From: Candidatus Parcubacteria bacterium
GTDB lineage: Bacteria; Patescibacteriota; Minisyncoccia; JAHIHE01; JAGLIN01
NCBI GenBank assembly: GCA_023132875.1
Contig: JAGLXN010000017.1
Coordinates: forward strand, 22,142-86,141
DNA length: 64,000 nucleotides
Direction of reading: 5' to 3'
The notes below the pieces were generated by a model that saw nothing but the letters and a program-made list of their open reading frames with translations, was not told the DNA's origin and did no database searches. The position numbers and the translations under genes were made by a program. Positions 3,026-62,118 of this stretch are shown here, piece after piece. How positions within the stretch are numbered: position 1 is the first letter of the stretch; the number at the start of each line of letters is the position of its first letter.

Positions 3026-3169
3026 ATAGCAAAATATATCACCCATTACTATCTTTGCTTAATTCTAGCTAAAATTTTGGCTATTGACATATAATCTTAT
3101 TGTGATATTATAATGCTAATAATTTTGCCCGCATAATTTCGGGGCCTTTTTAATTGATAAAATAAAAAA

Positions 3170-3628
3170 ATGGTTAAGCAATTTATAACAGAAGAAGGTT
3201 TAAAAAAATTAAAAGAAGAGCTTAATTATCTTAAAACAGAAAAAAGACAAGAAATATCAAGAAGGATTCAAGCCGCAAAAGAATTAGGAGATTTGAGCGA
3301 GAACGCGGAATATTCAGAAGCAAAAGAACAGCAAGCGCTTAATGAAGGAAAAATCGCAGAAATGGAAGAAACACTTAAAAACGCTCAGACAATAGACAAC
3401 GATCATAATTCTAATATAGTTAGTGTTGGCTCTACTATTACAATAAAAAACGAGGGGAAAAAGCGAACTTATACAATAGTCGGATCAAATGAAGCAAATC
3501 CTTCCGAAGGAAAAATTTCAAACGAAACCCCCCTTGCTATATCTTTTTTAGGACATAAGGTTAGTGAAAAAGTTGAAGTTGAAACGCCAAAAGGAAAAGT
3601 GGAATATAAAATTATTAAGATAGAATAG
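3170..3628 (+). CDS. greA: Transcription elongation factor GreA
   Basis: N-terminal coiled coil with the GDLSENAEY motif; 152 aa. Confidence 0.85.
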   Translation: MVKQFITEEGLKKLKEELNYLKTEKRQEISRRIQAAKELGDLSENAEYSEAKEQQALNEGKIAEMEETLKNAQTIDNDHNSNIVSVGSTITIKNEGKKRTYTIVGSNEANPSEGKISNETPLAISFLGHKVSEKVEVETPKGKVEYKIIKIE

Positions 3629-4066
3629 TCTGATTATTTTTTGATTATAAATAAAAATTTAAGGAGATGAGAATATAAAAAATATAGAAAGCGATCCAAT
3701 TGATCTCTCGAGATTACCGGAGGGAAAATACACAGTAGTCGGAAAAGAAGAGAATTCTTCTTCTACTACTGCTATAGTAGAAAAAGTAAAAGATGGTAAT
3801 TCTTGTATACATAAGATTCGTTTTCCTATGTTTATAGGGTATCGTTTTGCTATGAAAAACACCTTTGAAATTAATGAAGAAGGAAAGTTAATGTGTTCAA
3901 AAAATTTACAAATATAACTCTGTGAAAAATAAAGCAGAGTATTTTTTTGACTAATTCTAAATAAAATAGTATTATTTATAAAGAATGTTGTTGCTTAAGG
4001 ACGACATTTACAAATATCCGCAAATATCATTTTCAGGCGGTTTTTAAAATAAATTTAACCAAACTA

Positions 4067-9317: not shown

Positions 9318-10898
9318 ATGTCAATTATTTTAATTACAATATTAATATTATTTCTCATCAAAATTGTCCGTGATAGCTTGTTTTGTGTTTGGCTTTGGCA
9401 GGTGAAAGAATATCGGATAGATCGGATGAAATCTTATTTGAGAGACGAGAAAAGTATTATTTATAAAAATATTAATTATTTATTTGTTTTGATTTTATTT
9501 TTTATTTGCATTTTGGTTCCACAGCCATTCGGGACTATGGAACTAATGATTCTTATTTATTTAACGCTTTTATTTTTTACTTTTACTTTTTACCAAATTT
9601 TAATAGAAATAAAAGATAGAATTTTAAAAAGACCAAAGTTGACTTTTAAGATAATTCTAATATTTTTCATAGAAGCCACCTTTTATTTTTCGTTCTTTGT
9701 ATTTTACTGGATTCCCGCATTCGCGGGAATGACAAGACCTGCGGTCTTGATCCTACTATTACTATTTATTTATCTCATCACTCCTTTTTTAATTGCTACA
9801 ATTATTTTGTTAACAAATCCATTTTTTAATTTCCAAAAAAGAATAATAAAAAAAAAAGCCACCGAAAAAATGAAGGGATTGAAAAAAGTAAAAGTTATCG
9901 GTATTACGGGCAGTTACGGAAAGACAAGCACGAAAGAATTTCTATATGCGATATTGAACCAGAAATATAAAGTTGTAAAAACAGAAGGGAATAATAATAC
10001 GAATATCGGCGTGGCTTATACTGTTTTAAATAAAGTGAGTGATAAATATGATTATTTTATCTGTGAAATGGGCGCTTATAAAATTGGCGAAATCGCAGAA
10101 ATTTGTAAAATAGTAAAACCGGAAGTTGGAATTTTAACAGGAATTAACGAACAGCATATTGATTTATTTGGGTCTATTGAGAATACGGTTAAAGCGAAGT
10201 TTGAATTGATTGAGGCGTTGCCAGAGAACGGATTGGCGGTAATAAATGAAAAATTAAAAAATCAAAATGGAAAATTACAATTTAAAATTAAAAATGTTAA
10301 ATATTTTTCTTTGAACAATGTAAATGATATTAAAGTTTGTCAGGATTATGTAGGGTTTAATTATAAGAACTATAAATTTAAAACTAATCTTCTTGGCAAG
10401 CATTATATAGAAAATATTTTATCTGCTATAATGATAGCAGAATGTTTGGGAATAAGTTTGGATGAAATTGCAAAAGCAGTAGAGAAAATAAAACCGACTG
10501 AATTTATGATAAGAAAATTATACGGTCCAAATAATTCTATTTTTATTGATGACAGTTATAGCGCAAATCCTGATGGCGTAATCGCGGCGCTTGATTATTT
10601 AGATGAAGCGTATCAAGATTATAAAAAAATAATTGTTTTTCCAGGGATAATTGAATTGGGAAACAAGTCAAAAGAAGTGCATCAAAAATTATTTAGTAAA
10701 ATAGATAAAATTTGCGACTTTGCTTATATACTGAATACAGAATACAGAATACAGAATACTAATAACAAATTTGTTTTTGAGAAGGATTTTAATAAAGTGG
10801 CGAGAATGCTGAAAAATAATCTCAACGAAAAATCTGTTGTTCTTTTTGAAAGCCGGGGAGCGGGAGTGGCGATGGGAAAAGTAAAAATAGAAAAATAA
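9318..10898 (+). CDS. MurF-like Mur ligase with an N-terminal polytopic membrane domain of about 190 aa
   Basis: Mur ligase P-loop GITGSYGKTSTKE and C-terminal DDSYSANP signature; the N-terminus is strongly hydrophobic. Confidence 0.7.
   Translation: MSIILITILILFLIKIVRDSLFCVWLWQVKEYRIDRMKSYLRDEKSIIYKNINYLFVLILFFICILVPQPFGTMELMILIYLTLLFFTFTFYQILIEIKDRILKRPKLTFKIILIFFIEATFYFSFFVFYWIPAFAGMTRPAVLILLLLFIYLITPFLIATIILLTNPFFNFQKRIIKKKATEKMKGLKKVKVIGITGSYGKTSTKEFLYAILNQKYKVVKTEGNNNTNIGVAYTVLNKVSDKYDYFICEMGAYKIGEIAEICKIVKPEVGILTGINEQHIDLFGSIENTVKAKFELIEALPENGLAVINEKLKNQNGKLQFKIKNVKYFSLNNVNDIKVCQDYVGFNYKNYKFKTNLLGKHYIENILSAIMIAECLGISLDEIAKAVEKIKPTEFMIRKLYGPNNSIFIDDSYSANPDGVIAALDYLDEAYQDYKKIIVFPGIIELGNKSKEVHQKLFSKIDKICDFAYILNTEYRIQNTNNKFVFEKDFNKVARMLKNNLNEKSVVLFESRGAGVAMGKVKIEK
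9709..9753. repeat. Repeat family B hairpin (GGATTCCCGC-ATTC-GCGGGAATGAC plus AGACC-TGCG-GGTCT) inserted in-frame in the murF-like ORF
   Basis: Palindrome read directly; translates to IPAFAGMTRPAV. Confidence 0.6.
10733..10760 (+). repeat. In-frame heptamer tandem array (GAATACA x3, GAATACT) in the murF-like ORF
   Basis: Seen directly. Confidence 0.7.
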
Positions 10899-31076: not shown

Positions 31077-31853
31077 TTATTTTAATTCCGTCAAAATCTC
31101 ACACCCATCGTCTGTAACAGCAACCGTGTGCTCAAAATGCGCGGATAATTTTCCATCAGCTGTTCTGATCGTCCAGCCGTCATTATCGCATTTGATATAA
31201 TAACTGCCTTCATTCAACATCGGCTCTATCGCGAAAGTCATCCCGGGGCACAATTTTAAGCCAGTTCTTCTATTGCCGAAATTCGGCACTTCCGGCGGTT
31301 CATGAATTGATCTGCCAACTCCGTGCCCGACTAAATTTCTAACAACGGAAAAACCATTCTTCTCGGCGTATTTCTGCACGGCAAATCCAATATCCCCTAT
31401 TCTATTTCCGGGCTTCACTTGCTCTATGCCTTTAAATAAAGATTCTTTCGTAACCTCAATAAGCTTTCTTGCTTTCCTGTTTATCTTCCCGGCTCCAATC
31501 GTAATAGCGCTATCACTATGAAATCCTTTATATTTTACTCCCATATCAATACTGACAATATCTCCTTCTTTTATTATTTTATCATAAGGAAAACCATGAA
31601 CAATTTCATCGTTTATCGAAAAACAGATTATGGACGGAAAGGGCGCTATATTTTTACTTATTACATAATTCTTAAAAGACGAAATTACTCCATATTTTTT
31701 TACTTCTTTCTCAGTAATTTTTTCCAATTCATCTCCGGAAATTCCCGGCTCAACTTTTGAAGCCAGTAACTGTAAAATCTCCGCGAGAATTCTCCCGCTC
31801 TCTCTCATAATTTCTATTTCCGATTTTGATTTTATGTTTATTTTATTTTTCAT
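31077..31853 (-). CDS. map: Methionine aminopeptidase type I
   Basis: Pita-bread fold motifs (FHSD, GHGVG, EHTV). Start set at MKNKIN because the longer ORF N-terminus reads through the adjacent repeat element. Confidence 0.85.
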   Translation of the reverse strand: MKNKINIKSKSEIEIMRESGRILAEILQLLASKVEPGISGDELEKITEKEVKKYGVISSFKNYVISKNIAPFPSIICFSINDEIVHGFPYDKIIKEGDIVSIDMGVKYKGFHSDSAITIGAGKINRKARKLIEVTKESLFKGIEQVKPGNRIGDIGFAVQKYAEKNGFSVVRNLVGHGVGRSIHEPPEVPNFGNRRTGLKLCPGMTFAIEPMLNEGSYYIKCDNDGWTIRTADGKLSAHFEHTVAVTDDGCEILTELK

Positions 31854-31875
31854 TGTTTTATTTCTTGAATTATAA

Positions 31876-32012
31876 GTCATTGCGAGAAATAAAATTATCC
31901 GAAGGATAATTGAATGACGAAGCAATCCCGTAACTATGCTCCTCGCGTGTAGCCACGGGATTGCTTCGTCGCCTTCTTACTCGCTATGCTCGTTCGGGCT
32001 TCTCGCAATGAC
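31876..32012. mobile_element. MITE-like 137-bp element with 13-bp terminal inverted repeats GTCATTGCGAGAA/TTCTCGCAATGAC and an internal 15-bp inverted repeat
   Basis: Both inverted-repeat pairs seen directly; sits between map and adk. Confidence 0.65.
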
Positions 32013-32024
32013 AGTAATATATTT

Positions 32025-32684
32025 TTACTTTATATAACCAATGATCTCTTCAAAAACACCCTCCGCGCTCTGTTCTCCGTTTATTTTTATTAACATATTC
32101 TTGCTCTCATAATATTCAATAACCGGACTCAAAAGTTTTTTGCTCCATTCAAGACGATTTAAAATCTTTTCTGGCGTGTCATCTTCTCTTCTATAAACCT
32201 CGCTTCCGCAAATCGGACATTTTGTTTCTTCTTCTTTCACATCTTTTCCGACAATCAAGGAATGCCCACCTTCTCTGCATTGTTTTCTAATGGAAAGCCT
32301 TTTTACTGATTCTTCTTTTGAAATGTCCACATAAAAAACATAATCAATATTTCTTCCAACTTTTCTTAATTTTTCACTCCAAAATTCAGCTTCTTCCATT
32401 ATGCGGGGTGTTCCGTCAAATATAATCCCTTTATCTTGATCAAGTTCGTTTAATTTTTGTCCAAGTATTTTTTCTTTCATAAAACTCCACGGAATAATAT
32501 CCCCCTTTATATTAGTAATTTCATTTATTTTTCTGCCAGTGTCAGTGTCTTGTTTTGCTATATTTCTTATAATGGCTCCAGTCTCAAAAATCTGCAAATC
32601 AAATTTTTCCGCAAGCATTCTTGCCTGCGTTCCTTTTCCAGAACCCTGAGGACCCATAATGATAATGTCTATGTTTTTTTTCAT
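32025..32684 (-). CDS. adk: Adenylate kinase with zinc lid
   Basis: P-loop GPQGSGKGTQ; lid CxxC...C. Confidence 0.85.
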   Translation of the reverse strand: MKKNIDIIIMGPQGSGKGTQARMLAEKFDLQIFETGAIIRNIAKQDTDTGRKINEITNIKGDIIPWSFMKEKILGQKLNELDQDKGIIFDGTPRIMEEAEFWSEKLRKVGRNIDYVFYVDISKEESVKRLSIRKQCREGGHSLIVGKDVKEEETKCPICGSEVYRREDDTPEKILNRLEWSKKLLSPVIEYYESKNMLIKINGEQSAEGVFEEIIGYIK

Positions 32685-34738: not shown

Positions 34739-34744
34739 AGAATT

Positions 34745-34847
34745 ATATTGTTAAATTGTTGTATTGTTAAATTGTTGTATTGTTTTGCCTATTGCTTATT
34801 CAACGATTTAATCCAACAATACAGCAATGTAACAATATAACAATAAT
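34745..34847. repeat. Repeat family C, large palindromic copy (ATTGTTGTATTGTT x2 ... AACAATACAGCAATGTAACAATATAACAAT) upstream of secY
   Basis: Seen directly. Confidence 0.6.
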
Positions 34848-41932: not shown

Positions 41933-42052
41933 TTATTGTTATATTGTTCTATTGCTAAATTGTTATGCATGGCACATATTCACAATTATATTATTATATT
42001 ACAACTATTGAATTACTATGCATAACAATAGAACAATAGAGCAATACAACAA
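41933..42052. repeat. Repeat family C large palindrome (TTATTGTTATATTGTTCTATTGC ... GCATAACAATAGAACAATAGAGCAATACAACAA) between rpsS and rplB
   Basis: Seen directly. Confidence 0.6.
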
Positions 42053-42053
42053 T

Positions 42054-44910: not shown

Positions 44911-45087
44911 GCAAACCAATCCAGATAGCAAAGTTTAATATAAACAACAAAAAAATCAGATAATTAAACCAATCTTAACCGTTATTATCCGATTTATAAA
45001 TTGGCTAATTCAGTATGCTTAAGACTATTATTTAACCGGAAATTTCTGACAAAGTCCAGCAATAAGCACTTAAACTAGCATATAAAC

Positions 45088-45178
45088 AAATTGTTATATT
45101 GTCAAGTTATTATGCATAGCATAATAACACGCAATGTTACCTGACAATATAACAATTTAGCAATTTGACAATTTAATA
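45088..45178. repeat. Repeat family C palindrome (TTGTTATATTGTCAAG ... CCTGACAATATAACAA) just downstream of rpsJ
   Basis: Seen directly. Confidence 0.55.
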
Positions 45179-60045: not shown

Positions 60046-60729
60046 TCAAAGAGATCTGTCAGTTTTGCTTGCTGAAGGCGAAGGTGTGTTTCTTAAATCT
60101 GATCCTTTGCTTTTGTACTTATATGGATTACTTTGTCCTGTTATCCCTCTTTTAAGCTTATCAATATCTCTTTTTCCAAATTCTTTTCTCATTTTTTTTA
60201 TGTCAATTCCTTCTTCTGTTACTTTTTTAAATTTAGTTCCTGTAAATCTTTTACTTTTAAATCTTCTTGTAAATTCATCAAAATCCTTCTTTTTTAAAAC
60301 TGACTTTGTCGGATTATAAGCCTTTACGGCTCTTAAGAAGTCCATTTTTTTCTTCAAAGAAACTCCGTGCACTTTATGTAAGGCTTTTTCCATCTTCTTT
60401 GTTCCGCTTAAGCCAAAATCATTAAGCCTGTTATGCCTGAAAACTTTTAATTTATGATCATAGGTTTTTTTCTTTACCATGATTAGCTGGCCGCCTATCA
60501 TTTTTTGTTCTTGTTCGCTTTCTTTCTCCGGCTTTTTTTCTTTTTCCCTATCTTTTCTTGATCTCTCTACTGCTTCTTTTTTTCTTTCTTCATATTCTTC
60601 CCTCTCTTTTTCTAATCTATCTATTTCTTTTTGAAATTCTTTATTTTCCCTGTCCATTTTATTACTATTTTCTTCCTGACTTTCTATTCCACTATCGCTT
60701 TGTTCATTTTTTTTATCATCATCATCCAT
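60046..60729 (-). CDS. Hypothetical Glu/Lys-rich protein with basic C-terminus
   Basis: 227-aa ORF. Confidence 0.4.
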   Translation of the reverse strand: MDDDDKKNEQSDSGIESQEENSNKMDRENKEFQKEIDRLEKEREEYEERKKEAVERSRKDREKEKKPEKESEQEQKMIGGQLIMVKKKTYDHKLKVFRHNRLNDFGLSGTKKMEKALHKVHGVSLKKKMDFLRAVKAYNPTKSVLKKKDFDEFTRRFKSKRFTGTKFKKVTEEGIDIKKMRKEFGKRDIDKLKRGITGQSNPYKYKSKGSDLRNTPSPSASKTDRSL

Positions 60730-60856: not shown

Positions 60857-61032
60857 TGTCATTCTGAACTCGTTTCAGAATCTTTCTGTTGCTACATTGA
60901 ACAATCCTATAAAGCATCAAACGCTTTACTAAATTGAAAATACAATAATTGTAATATGATTCTTGGCGTTGTTGCAAATAGGATAAATTATACCTAACAG
61001 AAAATAGATTCTGAAACAAGTTCAGAATGACA
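60857..61032. mobile_element. 176-bp MITE-like element flanked by inverted family-B hairpins (TGTCATTCTGAACTCGTTTCAGAATC ... GATTCTGAAACAAGTTCAGAATGACA)
   Basis: Both terminal hairpins seen directly in opposite orientation. Confidence 0.6.
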
Positions 61033-61050: not shown

Positions 61051-62118
61051 CTATAATTCAATTTCACAGCAAAACTTTTTTAACGCTTCTTCTGAATAAT
61101 ATTTCAGCAATAATTTATTATACCATAAATCAAAAACATACTCTTGATTAGTTTTAGAAATAGCTCGTCCTTCTTTCTCTGAAAGTTCAAAATTAATTTT
61201 AGCCGCCGGAAAATCTTCAACTTTGAGTATTTCCAATCTCAGAGGTAAATTTTTACTAATTTTTCGAAGCTCAAACAAAAAACTTTCCAGTTTTTCTTTC
61301 GCTATTTTTTTATCATAGACATAAGCTGGAACATAAGCATAAAAATCAGCGCCCAAATCAATTAAAAATTTTGCGGCTTCAAACTGATTTTTATAAAACT
61401 TTTCTTTTGCCCCTGTTATCAGGCTAAAATCCTCTTTTACTGTTCCTTTAAAACATCCTACGATCCCGACATTTTTTTGGCTTAAAACTTTTTCAAGTTC
61501 ATTTTTTTGTTCTTTCATAATTTCTATGGCGGATAAATTCGTATCAATCCACAAATACGAGTCTTCAGATTTTTTCATCATCTCATTATAAAGATCAATA
61601 ACAATTTCAGGAATAATCATGCACTCTCCCCCGCTTATTCTTATTACATTCATTGCCTCTTTTGAATCTTTTTTTATTCTTAAAAATTCTTCAACGATTT
61701 CTTTAGCGCTGAAAAATCTTCCGTATCTTTTATCCGCCGAATTAAGTTCGCGAGGAACAAAACAATAGTTGCACGAATAATTGCATCCCGCGACTTGCAT
61801 CGTGAAAACTTTGCTAAATTCCGCAAGGCTTCTTTTTAGATTATAAGCTGCTGAATATGTCGGGTTTTGGAATTCAGTTCTTTTAAATCCATTCTTTCTC
61901 AGCCCCAAAAATTTATCAGACCATTTTTTCTTTTCGCTTGCCTTGACCCATCCCGGTTTATCAATATAATCTTTATATCTGAAATAATCAGTAAGAACTT
62001 TCCGTTCTCCCGGATCCTGCCCCGCTCCGCCAATTTTTGCAAGCAGATATTTATTATCTCTTATTAATTTTTTTCTGAGCATTCGCGCTCTTTGGCTTGG
62101 GTTAAACATAAAAATCAT
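61051..62118 (-). CDS. Radical SAM enzyme of unknown specificity with about 100-aa N-terminal extension
   Basis: CNYSCNYCF (CxxxCxxC) and ISGGE SAM-binding motif; the true start may be the second ATG (62109). Confidence 0.65.
   Translation of the reverse strand: MIFMFNPSQRARMLRKKLIRDNKYLLAKIGGAGQDPGERKVLTDYFRYKDYIDKPGWVKASEKKKWSDKFLGLRKNGFKRTEFQNPTYSAAYNLKRSLAEFSKVFTMQVAGCNYSCNYCFVPRELNSADKRYGRFFSAKEIVEEFLRIKKDSKEAMNVIRISGGECMIIPEIVIDLYNEMMKKSEDSYLWIDTNLSAIEIMKEQKNELEKVLSQKNVGIVGCFKGTVKEDFSLITGAKEKFYKNQFEAAKFLIDLGADFYAYVPAYVYDKKIAKEKLESFLFELRKISKNLPLRLEILKVEDFPAAKINFELSEKEGRAISKTNQEYVFDLWYNKLLLKYYSEEALKKFCCEIEL

What the first reader, a model, noticed from the sequence alone, without database searches (positions are those of the whole stretch)
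31876..32012. 137-bp MITE-like element with 13-bp perfect terminal inverted repeats between map and adk
The termini are GTCATTGCGAGAA...TTCTCGCAATGAC. Inside, a 15-bp perfect inverted repeat GACGAAGCAATCCCG...CGGGATTGCTTCGTC encloses a 25-nt loop. The element extends the apparent map ORF by 24 codons (MLRHSIILRIILFLAMTYNSRNKT), which is an annotation trap.
Basis: seen in the sequence. Interest (0 to 1): 0.5.

Follow-up and report, generated by a model that had tools for sequence, protein, structure and literature searches.

The report
Hairpin repeat of the Ssn-nuclease family
The 137-bp palindrome between adk and map is real, and it is a gene-less copy of a hairpin repeat found across many bacterial phyla, the kind recently shown in Neisseria to be the single-stranded-DNA target of a small GIY-YIG nuclease (Ssn), so it is a divergent variant of a known system and not a classical MITE.

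Summary

The "TIR" and the inner repeat are not private to this locus. GTCATTGCGAG and GACGAAGCAATC are the head and tail of a hairpin unit.

The element is two such units in inverted orientation, with nothing coding between them.

- **Link to Ssn:** in other phyla a 95-aa GIY-YIG gene sits between or among units of this type in 5 of 5 independent loci. Eight of 8 more distant homologues, including the Neisseria one, are flanked by related GTCAT-hairpin-ATCC repeats. These are the Ssn-related motifs (SRM/NTS) of Chenal et al. 2025.
- **Turnover:** in Pacebacteria relatives (84-91% Map identity) the adk-map interval is empty, holds this type, a sister type, another palindrome, or a gene. A copy with a 56/59 identical left arm lies at a different site.
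- **Limits:** no target-site duplication, no Rfam match, no ssn gene in the window, and the published SRM search string does not match this unit type.

Verdict: a new variant of a known kind, of moderate interest.

The parts
31876..32012 (.). The whole 137-bp element: two SRM-like hairpin units in inverted (head-outward) orientation around a 25-nt centre. It lies between the adk stop (12 nt upstream on the gene strand) and the map ATG (22 nt downstream).
   Evidence: structure, z about -9; homologous copies in relatives.
31876..31930 (+). Arm A, one GC-type unit read on the + strand: head GTCATT, GCGAG, variable mini-hairpin, GACGAA, GCAATC, tail CCG.
   Evidence: The head fits HGTCWY and the tail fits RNCYNB of the published SRM string, but the full string does not match.
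31893..31911 (+). Mini-hairpin inside arm A: AATTATCC-GAA-GGATAATT, an 8-bp stem with a C(GAA)G triloop.
   Evidence: (I19). The same position holds covarying hairpins in other copies: GC-GAA-GC, GCC-GAA-GGC, TCCCG..CGGGA. CCGAAGG is a documented, extraordinarily stable ssDNA mini-hairpin (PMC13037366).
31956..32012 (-). Arm B, the second GC-type unit, read on the minus (gene-sense) strand: GTCATTGCGAG-AAGCCCGAACGAGCATAGCGAGTAAGAAGGC-GACGAAGCAATCCCG.
   Evidence: It is 56/59 identical to the corresponding arm of the copy between map and ruvX in L204.
31931..31955 (.). Central 25-nt segment between the two units. This is the position occupied by the ssn (GIY-YIG) gene in gene-carrying versions elsewhere.
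   Evidence: In L401 the gene lies at 297-581 between units at 254-286 and 593-618. L348 has the same layout.
31854..31925 (-). Spurious 24-codon N-terminal extension of map (TTG start inside the element).
   Evidence: The public gene call uses the ATG at 31853. Homologues are 256-259 aa.
60858..61031 (.). A second family member in the window, of the sister 'CT' type (174 bp): GTCATTCTGAAC...GTTCAGAATGAC. Each arm is GTC + 8-bp hairpin ATTCTGAA/TTCAGAAT + C.
   Evidence: RNA fold -65.4 kcal/mol, z = -11.3; arm folds as head + 8-bp hairpin. The same type fills the adk-map spacer in L204 and L442.
9707..9734 (-). A single canonical SRM, nearly identical to the Neisseria NTS: TGTCATTCCCGCGAATGCGGGAATCCAG. 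It lies in frame inside ORF 9318-10898 (peptide YWIPAFAGMTRP).
   Evidence: It is the only match to the published SRM string in the window; 0.01 matches are expected per dinucleotide shuffle. It folds as DNA at -9.0 kcal/mol, like the NTS at -8.9.

Best explanation
The element is a non-autonomous, gene-less dimer of two inverted hairpin units. The units belong to the superfamily of Ssn-related motifs (SRM; the Neisseria NTS/dRS3 repeats are the type example).

**Shown here**
- Each arm has the SRM head (Y/A-GTCAT) and tail (ATCCNG).
- The unit type recurs across many phyla.
- In other phyla the space between two such arms holds a 95-aa GIY-YIG gene homologous to Neisseria SsnA.
- In this Pacebacteria clade the elements are gained, lost and exchanged between intergenic sites.

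**Taken from the literature (PMC11893778)**
- SsnA binds its motif only when the DNA is single-stranded and folded.
- It cuts a few nucleotides 5' of the head.
- It does not act on the reverse strand, on dsDNA or on RNA.
- In Neisseria this lowers integration of transforming DNA that carries the motif.

**Inferred**
- When this locus is single-stranded (replication, DNA uptake, recombination), each strand presents one unit in the cleavable orientation, so both ends of the element are potential Ssn sites.
- Such paired nicks, or recombination between copies, are how the units are lost, replaced and spread.
- In the spc-operon mRNA the palindrome is co-transcribed as a passive strong hairpin. 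At most it has a secondary effect on adk/map transcript stability.
For: The genomes span Alpha-, Gamma- and Deltaproteobacteria, Myxococcota, Bacteroidota, Ignavibacteriota, Chloroflexota, Planctomycetota, Verrucomicrobiota, Zixibacteria, Latescibacterota, Armatimonadota, Bacillota and several CPR lineages. One Novosphingobium replicon holds at least 40 places.
2. **Hairpin unit.** The stem positions ATTNN/N'N'AAT covary: GC/GC 316, CT/AG 178, CC/GG 16, TT/AA 3, against at most 4 for any non-complementary pair. The apical mini-hairpin also covaries.
3. **Link to Ssn.** A PF01541 GIY-YIG ORF sits exactly between inverted GC-type units in L401 and L348. Three further independent close homologues (P0142, P0130, P0193) lie in clusters of GC-type units. 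Eight of 8 plasmid-collection homologues are flanked by inverted GTCAT-hairpin-ATCC repeats, including the Neisseria NTS. The L401 protein is 44% identical to the Neisseria homologue (E = 9e-27).
4. **Turnover.** The adk-map interval is 4 nt in L445 and 11-13 nt in L124 and L125. It is 71 nt with no element of this family in L443. It holds a GC-type element in L444 and L205, a CT-type element in L204 and L442, another palindrome in L122, and a DNA_alkylation gene in L202 and L203. The window copy is 85% identical overall (left arm 56/59) to a copy at map-ruvX in L204.
5. **DNA level rather than RNA level.** There is no consistent orientation bias relative to flanking genes, no Rfam match even at E <= 1, and no promoter or terminator signal. 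C(GNA)G triloops are a hallmark of stable ssDNA mini-hairpins.
6. **Same window.** It also holds a CT-type dimer and a canonical NTS-like SRM.
Against: - The published SRM search string does not match this unit type or the window's arms.
- No ssn homologue was found in the 64-kb window or in the fetched Pacebacteria loci (HMM search). The other ~767 kb of the source scaffold could not be read.
- A single GC-type arm folds only weakly by nearest-neighbour energies (-2 to -6 kcal/mol, z about 0). The whole-element fold, not two separate SRM hairpins, is the predicted ground state.
- No one has shown that any Ssn cuts a GC-type unit.
- The transposition or spread mechanism of SRMs is itself only a hypothesis in the literature.
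- Only one copy of this exact subtype lies in the window.
Confidence: 0.65

Rival explanations
1. A classical MITE: a deletion derivative of an insertion sequence whose DDE transposase binds the 13-bp terminal inverted repeats and inserts the element with a target-site duplication.
For: Perfect 13-bp termini, small size and no coding capacity. Occupancy of the site varies among relatives, and copies lie at other sites.
Against: No direct repeat flanks this copy or any inspected copy. The same termini are shared by unrelated phyla and also occur as single units. Neighbour clustering found no transposase next to about 750 units in roughly 3 Mb. The gene found between such arms is a 95-aa GIY-YIG nuclease.
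Confidence: 0.07
2. A REP/REPIN-type element mobilised by a RAYT, a domesticated IS200/IS605-like HUH (Y1) transposase that acts on ssDNA hairpins.
For: The biology is similar: an extragenic palindrome, no target duplication, doublets in inverted orientation, stable ssDNA hairpins, and rarity in divergent (promoter) spacers (2 of 41 dimers).
Against: The head is GTCAT, not the GTAG/GTGG tetranucleotide of REPs. No Y1 transposase was found among neighbours. All 13 GIY-YIG loci inspected carry the repeats. Known REP sequences are species-specific, whereas this unit is shared across phyla.
Confidence: 0.07
3. Primarily an RNA element of the spc-operon transcript: an intercistronic hairpin selected to stabilise the upstream adk message, to be processed by RNase III, or to attenuate read-through into map.
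For: It is co-transcribed between adk and map and folds at -70.7 kcal/mol. Relatives often carry some strong palindrome at the same spot, though of different families (L122, L204, L442, L444). This could mean that any hairpin is tolerated or useful there.
Against: Some close relatives have spacers of 4-13 nt with no structure. There is no U-tract terminator and no promoter. Rfam gives no match. Across the family there is no consistent orientation relative to transcription. The triloops are of the DNA-stable GNA type on one strand. The same units occur at sites with other contexts, including inside an ORF.
Confidence: 0.12
4. A chance palindrome in an AT-rich genome.
For: The window contains many AT-rich inverted repeats.
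Against: z is about -9.9 against dinucleotide shuffles. The element is GC-rich in a 31% GC genome. Homologous copies exist in relatives and the motif exists in other phyla.
Confidence: 0.01

Closest known systems
Ssn-related motifs (SRM), with the Neisseria Transformation Sequence NTS as type example, and their GIY-YIG ssDNA nuclease SsnA (cd10448); Chenal et al., Nat Commun 2025, PMC11893778
   Same: The 5' head (C/T)GTCAT, a hairpin core starting ATT.. and ending ..AAT, and the tail C-Y-N-G. Units occur as inverted pairs and are intergenic and multi-copy. A ~95-aa single-domain GIY-YIG gene lies between inverted units in gene-carrying versions, and the family is spread across phyla. The window also holds one near-exact NTS-type unit (9707-9734).
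   Different: The hairpin core is not the 8-bp stem with a 4-nt loop. It is a 5-bp closing stem (ATTGC/GCAAT), a purine-rich internal loop (GAG / CGAA) and a variable mini-hairpin, making 26-57 nt. The published degenerate search string does not match it. This copy carries no gene, and no ssn gene was seen in the window. Cleavage of this unit type has never been tested.
Neisseria dRS3 repeats and NIMEs (Neisseria intergenic mosaic elements)
   Same: Short repeat units bounded by inverted ATTCCC-N8-GGGAAT-type hairpins, clustered between genes and associated with locus variability. dRS3 is the palindromic core of the NTS.
   Different: A different host phylum and a different core sequence. NIMEs are mosaics of several repeat units, whereas this is a single dimer.
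REP / BIME / REPIN elements with RAYT (IS200/IS605-like Y1 transposases)
   Same: Extragenic palindromes that act as ssDNA hairpins, with no target duplication, inverted doublets and a single-copy cognate nuclease gene flanked by the repeats. The authors of the Ssn paper draw the same analogy.
   Different: The cognate enzyme fold is GIY-YIG, not HUH. The head is GTCAT, not GTAG. Known REPs are species-specific, whereas this unit is nearly identical across phyla.
Bacterial MITEs derived from DDE-transposase insertion sequences (for example Correia/NEMIS elements)
   Same: Size, terminal inverted repeats, no coding capacity, and presence/absence polymorphism.
   Different: No target-site duplication and no related IS with a DDE transposase. 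The termini also function as stand-alone single units.
d(GCGNAGC)/d(CCGAAGG) mini-hairpin DNA (review PMC13037366)
   Same: The apical C(GNA)G triloop hairpins of the units (GCGAAGC, GCGCAGC, GCCGAAGGC; here CCGAAGG) are this motif, which is known from ssDNA initiation signals and hairpin promoters.
   Different: That is a structural motif, not a genetic element. Its presence suggests only that the relevant form is single-stranded DNA.

Membership tests
SRM / NTS repeats of Ssn nucleases | Conserved oriented 5' head HGTCWY and 3' tail RNCYNB around a hairpin | tested here: met
   Arm A is A-GTCAT...GCA-ATCCCG on the + strand. Arm B is T-GTCAT...GCA-ATCCCG on the - strand.
SRM / NTS repeats of Ssn nucleases | Match to the published degenerate search string HGTCWYN(0-2)YYVSBRHN(0-5)WNVSBRGN(0-2)RNCYNB | tested here: not met
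   The regex matches the NTS, Aeromonas, Azospirillum and Neorhizobium controls and window 9707-9734. It does not match the GC-type or CT-type consensus or either arm of this element.
SRM / NTS repeats of Ssn nucleases | Each unit forms a hairpin of 20-50 nt | tested here: inconclusive
   Covariation of ATTNN/N'N'AAT and of the mini-hairpin supports a unit hairpin. Predicted DNA folding of a single arm is weak, at -2 to -6 kcal/mol with z about 0 to -2. The arms are 55-57 nt.
SRM / NTS repeats of Ssn nucleases | Units flank a single-domain ~95-aa GIY-YIG (Ssn) gene | tested here: met
   This is met for the unit type, not for this genome. L401, L348, P0142, P0130 and P0193 are all flanked by or embedded in GC-type units. 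The proteins hit PF01541 and are 44% identical to the Neisseria homologue.
SRM / NTS repeats of Ssn nucleases | An ssn gene is present in the same genome | tested here: inconclusive
   No hit in the 64-kb window or in the Pacebacteria loci (best E = 1.7). The remaining ~767 kb of the 831-kb scaffold could not be read.
SRM / NTS repeats of Ssn nucleases | Strand-specific binding and cleavage by Ssn on ssDNA, not on dsDNA or RNA | not testable with these tools
   This needs purified enzyme and oligonucleotides, as in the assay described.
Classical MITE (DDE-transposase derived) | Terminal inverted repeats, small size, non-coding | tested here: met
Classical MITE (DDE-transposase derived) | Target-site duplication flanking the element | tested here: not met
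   On the gene strand the flanks are ...TATATTACT | element | TTATAATTC.... No direct repeat flanks this copy or the copies in L203, L204, L205, L442, L444 or the viral contigs.
Classical MITE (DDE-transposase derived) | A parent IS with the same ends that encodes a transposase | tested here: not met
   Neighbour clustering found no transposase. The only bracketed gene is a GIY-YIG nuclease.
REP / REPIN (RAYT-associated) | Conserved GT[AG]G head and a flanked Y1 (HUH) transposase gene | tested here: not met
   The head is GTCAT. No RAYT-like neighbour was found.
Any curated RNA family (Rfam 15) | Covariance-model match at or near the gathering score | tested here: not met
   There was nothing at the gathering score in the window or in 11 loci rich in canonical copies. 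There was nothing at E <= 1 in L022 and L048. Only chance-level snoRNA and miRNA hits appeared at the locus.

The most novel reading that the evidence does not exclude
The GTCATTGCGAG...GAAGCAATC ('GC') and GTCATTCTGA...AGAATC ('CT') units may be distinct, undescribed specificity classes of the Ssn system. On this reading their nucleases recognise a bipartite hairpin: a 5-bp closing stem, a purine-rich internal loop and a GNA mini-hairpin.

The gene-less dimers would then be true mobile derivatives that move between intergenic sites, even in an ~0.8-Mb CPR genome that may lack its own ssn gene. That would imply mobilisation in trans, or acquisition by DNA uptake.

The patchy adk-map occupancy among 84-91% relatives would give a natural system for working out how SRM repeats spread, which the 2025 paper leaves open.
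Probability: 0.25. Interest if true: 0.6.

Novelty: new variant of a known kind. Interest (0 to 1): 0.4.

Why it matters
**Practical.** These GC-rich palindromes in AT-rich CPR genomes create false N-terminal extensions. This happens at map here, and a relative's public gene call (P0009) already carries such an extension. One unit is even embedded in frame in a MurF-like ORF. Annotators should therefore mask them.

**Biological.** The result extends the recently described Ssn/SRM system to unit types that the published search string misses, and to Patescibacteria. It also offers a set of closely related genomes in which one intergenic site is empty, filled by different unit types, or filled by a gene.

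That is the kind of natural series needed to test whether SRM dimers are mobile and how. If Ssn enzymes specific for these longer bipartite units exist, they would add new specificities to a family proposed as site-specific ssDNA-cutting tools.

Tried and rejected
- **Full-text searches for the repeat.** Searches for the repeat as DNA, RNA or translated peptide strings returned only chance primer matches. A search for Patescibacteria plus MITE found nothing relevant. The family was identified only after the GIY-YIG link was found.
- **Rfam.** No family matched at the gathering score or at permissive E-values.
- **Other copies of the exact 13-mer or 15-mer in the window.** None beyond the element itself.
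- **Subfamily-specific 21-mer in viral contigs.** No hit.
- **Clustering of ORFs next to about 750 units, to look for a transposase.** Only related phage structural genes and spurious ORFs across the repeats came out. The 95-aa GIY-YIG gene was missed because it is rare in that sample (2 loci).
- **A hand-written GIY-YIG regex.** It found nothing because it was too strict. tblastn and an HMM replaced it.
- **The search for related loci for the GIY-YIG protein in viral contigs.** No relatives.
- **The metagenome scan for Map relatives.** It was swamped by distant homologues and gave only 4 useful loci. Closer relatives came from the look-up of encoding contigs.
- **Ideas considered and dropped:** hammerhead or other ribozyme, k-turn, integron attC, sigma-54 promoter, intrinsic terminator. 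The core sequences do not fit, and searches gave nothing.
- **Orientation relative to transcription.** No consistent bias. My gene calls there were crude.
- **Supplementary tables of the Ssn paper.** They are not held, so I could not check whether the authors list GC-type units.

Full report
**1. Observation.** The sequence is as described.
- GTCATTGCGAGAA (31876-31888) and TTCTCGCAATGAC (32000-32012) are perfectly complementary.
- GACGAAGCAATCCCG (31916-31930) and CGGGATTGCTTCGTC (31956-31970) are perfectly complementary around 25 nt.
- A third small hairpin, AATTATCC-GAA-GGATAATT, lies at 31893-31911.
- The element folds into a three-way junction. As RNA it gives about -70 kcal/mol (z about -9.9). 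As DNA it gives about -39 kcal/mol (z about -8 to -9).
- It is GC-rich (0.53) in a window of 0.31 GC.
- The genes lie on the minus strand in the order secY, gmk, adk (32025-32684), element, map (31077-31853), a GT2 glycosyltransferase, ruvX.
- The longest-ORF rule adds 24 false codons to map from a TTG inside the element.
- The source is an 831-kb scaffold from an ENA metagenome. The closest named Map homologues are from Candidatus Pacebacteria/Paceibacterota.

**2. The repeats are not private to this locus.**
- They hit the same limit in GTDB genomes. The titles span Alpha-, Gamma- and Deltaproteobacteria, Myxococcota, Bacteroidota, Ignavibacteriota, Chloroflexota, Planctomycetota, Verrucomicrobiota, Zixibacteria, Latescibacterota, Armatimonadota, Bacillota, and CPR lineages (Doudna-, Berkel-, Curtissbacteria and 'Patescibacteria group').
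- One Novosphingobium replicon holds at least 40 places.
- The canonical full form is about 80-90 nt: GTCATTGCGAG-GAGCGAAGC-GACGAAGCAATCCAG-[loop]-CTGGATTGCTTCGC-TTCG-CTCGCAATGAC. In the viral sample, 65 copies were such dimers and 76 were single units.

**3. Anatomy of the unit.** Across the fetched DNA, the two bases after GTCATT covary with the two before AATC. The counts are GC/GC 316, CT/AG 178, CC/GG 16 and TT/AA 3, against at most 4 for any non-complementary pair. The first two classes were search keys; the others were not.
- The unit is therefore GTC-[ATTNN ... N'N'AAT]-C.
- Inside it are a purine-rich internal loop and an apical mini-hairpin. The mini-hairpin's stem varies by compensatory change (GC-GAA-GC, GCC-GAA-GGC, TCCCG..CGGGA; here AATTATCC-GAA-GGATAATT). 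Its loop is usually GNA.
- C(GNA)G triloops are the 'extraordinarily stable mini-hairpin DNA' motif. CCGAAGG, the exact sequence here, occurs in the RSF1010 ssiA signal (PMC13037366).
- No Rfam family matches canonical or window copies, even at E <= 1.

**4. The adk-map interval in relatives.**

| Locus | Map identity to the window | What lies between adk and map |
|---|---|---|
| L445 | 88% | 4 nt |
| L124, L125 | 70% | 11-13 nt |
| L443 | 88% | 71 nt, no element of this family |
| L444 | 90% | 103-nt GC-type element at the same place |
| L205 | 87% | degenerate GC-type copy |
| L204, L442 | 87%, 89% | sister 'CT-type' element (GTCATTCTGAA... / GTCATCCTGAA...) |
| L122 | 84% | unrelated AT-rich palindrome |
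| L202, L203 | 91%, 89% | a 235-aa DNA_alkylation gene |

- The L444 element shares GCATAGTTACGGGATTGCTTCG and the downstream flank with the window copy.

**5. Copies at other sites.**
- The window element is 104/122 identical (85%) to a copy between map and ruvX in L204. The left arm is 56/59 identical. It is 98/122 identical to the map-ruvX copy in L203.
- L205 keeps a remnant at that second site.
- L442 carries three CT-type copies in three consecutive spacers.
- The window itself holds a CT-type dimer at 60858-61031 (174 bp; -65.4 kcal/mol; z = -11.3).
- None of these copies has a target-site duplication.

**6. The associated gene.**
- Unbiased clustering of ORFs next to about 750 units gave no transposase.
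- In L401 (Bacillota) a 95-aa ORF lies exactly between a unit (254-286, +) and an inverted unit (593-618, -). L348 (Planctomycetota) has the same layout.
- Both proteins are PF01541 GIY-YIG.
- Three further independent close homologues lie in clusters of GC-type units: P0142 (Desulfobacteraceae), P0130 (Dehalococcoidia) and P0193.
- Eight of 8 more distant homologues from the plasmid collection are flanked by inverted GTCAT-hairpin-ATCC repeats. They are from Planktothrix, Spirosoma, Neorhizobium, Aeromonas, Azospirillum, Novosphingobium, Neisseria and Sphingobium. The Planktothrix repeats are CT-type. The Neisseria repeat is CGTCATTCCCGC.CAGGCGGGAATC.
- The L401 protein is 44% identical to the Neisseria homologue (E = 9e-27).

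**7. What is known.** That architecture led to Chenal et al. 2025 (PMC11893778).
- The Neisseria repeat is the NTS (CGTCATTCCCGCGMAVGCGGGAATCYRG), an oriented extension of dRS3.
- SsnA (94 aa, cd10448) binds the NTS only as folded ssDNA and cuts just upstream. It ignores the reverse strand, dsDNA and RNA.
- SsnA lowers transformation by NTS-bearing DNA.
- 'Ssn-related motifs' (SRM) flank 71% of homologues across phyla.
- The authors note that NTS-ssnA-NTS looks like an insertion sequence and compare it with REP/RAYT. The spreading mechanism is left open.

**8. Membership.**
- Both arms of the window element have the SRM head (HGTCWY) and tail (RNCYNB).
- The published degenerate string matches neither arm, nor the GC- or CT-type consensus. 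It does match my positive controls.
- That string finds one canonical SRM in the window: 9707-9734 on the minus strand, TGTCATTCCCGCGAATGCGGGAATCCAG. About 0.01 matches are expected per shuffle. It sits in frame inside ORF 9318-10898 and encodes YWIPAFAGMTRP.
- No ssn gene was detected in the window or in the Pacebacteria loci. The rest of the genome could not be read.
- A single GC-type arm folds weakly in silico, although nearest-neighbour models do not credit sheared G.A pairs.
- I therefore file the element as a divergent variant within the SRM superfamily, not as a canonical SRM.

**9. DNA or RNA.**
- Orientation relative to flanking genes shows no consistent bias. Dimers were 6 sense and 18 antisense in genomes, and 14 and 15 in viral contigs. 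Single units were 20 and 11, and 87 and 69. My gene calls for this test were crude.
- Dimers are rare in divergent spacers (2 of 41).
- There is no promoter-like or terminator-like site at the locus.
- With the GNA triloops and the published ssDNA specificity of Ssn, this favours a DNA-level element. In the operon transcript it is then a passive, if very stable, hairpin.

**10. Mechanism, with status.**
- *Shown:* the architecture, the family, the gene association of the unit type, and the turnover at this site.
- *From the literature:* Ssn cuts ssDNA 5' of the head of a folded unit.
- *Inferred:* in this element each strand offers one cleavable unit, so both boundaries are potential Ssn sites. 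Such paired cuts, or recombination between dispersed copies, account for gain, loss and replacement.
- *Unknown:* whether this genome encodes an Ssn, and whether any Ssn cuts GC-type units.

**11. Verdict.** The element is non-autonomous, dispersed and variable, and it is an annotation trap. It is not a DDE-type MITE. It is a variant of a kind described in 2025, which makes it moderately interesting. The interest lies in the unit types the published search misses, their presence in CPR, and the natural filled/empty series at one site.

Noticed in passing
window 9707-9734 (minus strand), inside ORF 9318-10898: A near-exact Neisseria-type NTS/SRM (TGTCATTCCCGCGAATGCGGGAATCCAG) lies in frame within the N-terminal membrane part of a 526-aa MurF-like ORF. 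It encodes ...FYWIPAFAGMTRPAV.... It is the only match to the published SRM string in the window, against 0.01 expected by shuffling.
   Followed up: partly
window 60858-61031: A 174-bp palindromic element of the sister 'CT' type (GTCATTCTGAAC...GTTCAGAATGAC) lies between two minus-strand ORFs (60046-60729 and 61051-62118). The RNA fold is -65.4 kcal/mol (z = -11.3). The same type fills the adk-map spacer in relatives L204 and L442.
   Followed up: yes
window 34743-34840, 41935-42053, 45070-45176; L122 2358-2500: A different, AT-rich palindrome family built from ATTGTTA/ATTGTCA-like heptamers occupies several intergenic spacers, including the one just upstream of secY. In relative L122 it occupies the adk-map spacer.
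   Followed up: no
L202 775-1482, L203 775-1482, L123: In the closest relatives (89-91% Map identity) a 235-aa DNA_alkylation (PF08713) gene lies between adk and map. It is absent from the window genome, so this part of the spc-operon tail is a hot spot for gene and repeat turnover.
   Followed up: partly
L204 496-1347 (protein P0009, 283 aa): A public gene call for map in a relative starts inside that contig's palindromic element (MRCHSSAETMAPSVRFWDDRNFKNNTT-MKQ...).
   Followed up: yes
viral loci such as L003 7062-7093, L005, L010 (4 copies), L016, L050, L056: A group of related phage-like contigs carries single GC-type units repeatedly in intergenic regions. The units often lie 10-20 nt upstream of a Shine-Dalgarno sequence and ATG, in the sense orientation. 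An example is GTCATTGCGAGGAGCGCAGCGACGAAGCAATCTCAAAAGGAGGAAACCATG. Their role there is unexplained.
   Followed up: partly
L460 versus L462 (upstream unit of the same ssn locus): Two versions of one locus differ by a ~55-nt expansion exactly at the mini-hairpin position of the unit (GAGCGAAGC versus GAGCCCTTCGGCAGAG...CTCCGC). The window's arms carry their 29-31-nt inserts at the same position, so this point of the unit is an insertion or expansion hot spot.
   Followed up: no
L330 (Candidatus Doudnabacteria), reverse strand 3078-3436 and 3784-4030: A ~360-nt GC-type element with internal tandem repeats lies about 350 nt from a GIY-YIG-like ORF (HMM E = 2e-8) that is interrupted by a TAG codon. 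It may be a decayed nuclease gene next to an SRM-like element in a CPR genome.
   Followed up: partly
protein hits P0121-P0240: Many contigs carrying the 95-aa GIY-YIG gene are only 0.5-3 kb long. This would fit a repeat-flanked gene that breaks short-read assemblies.
   Followed up: no
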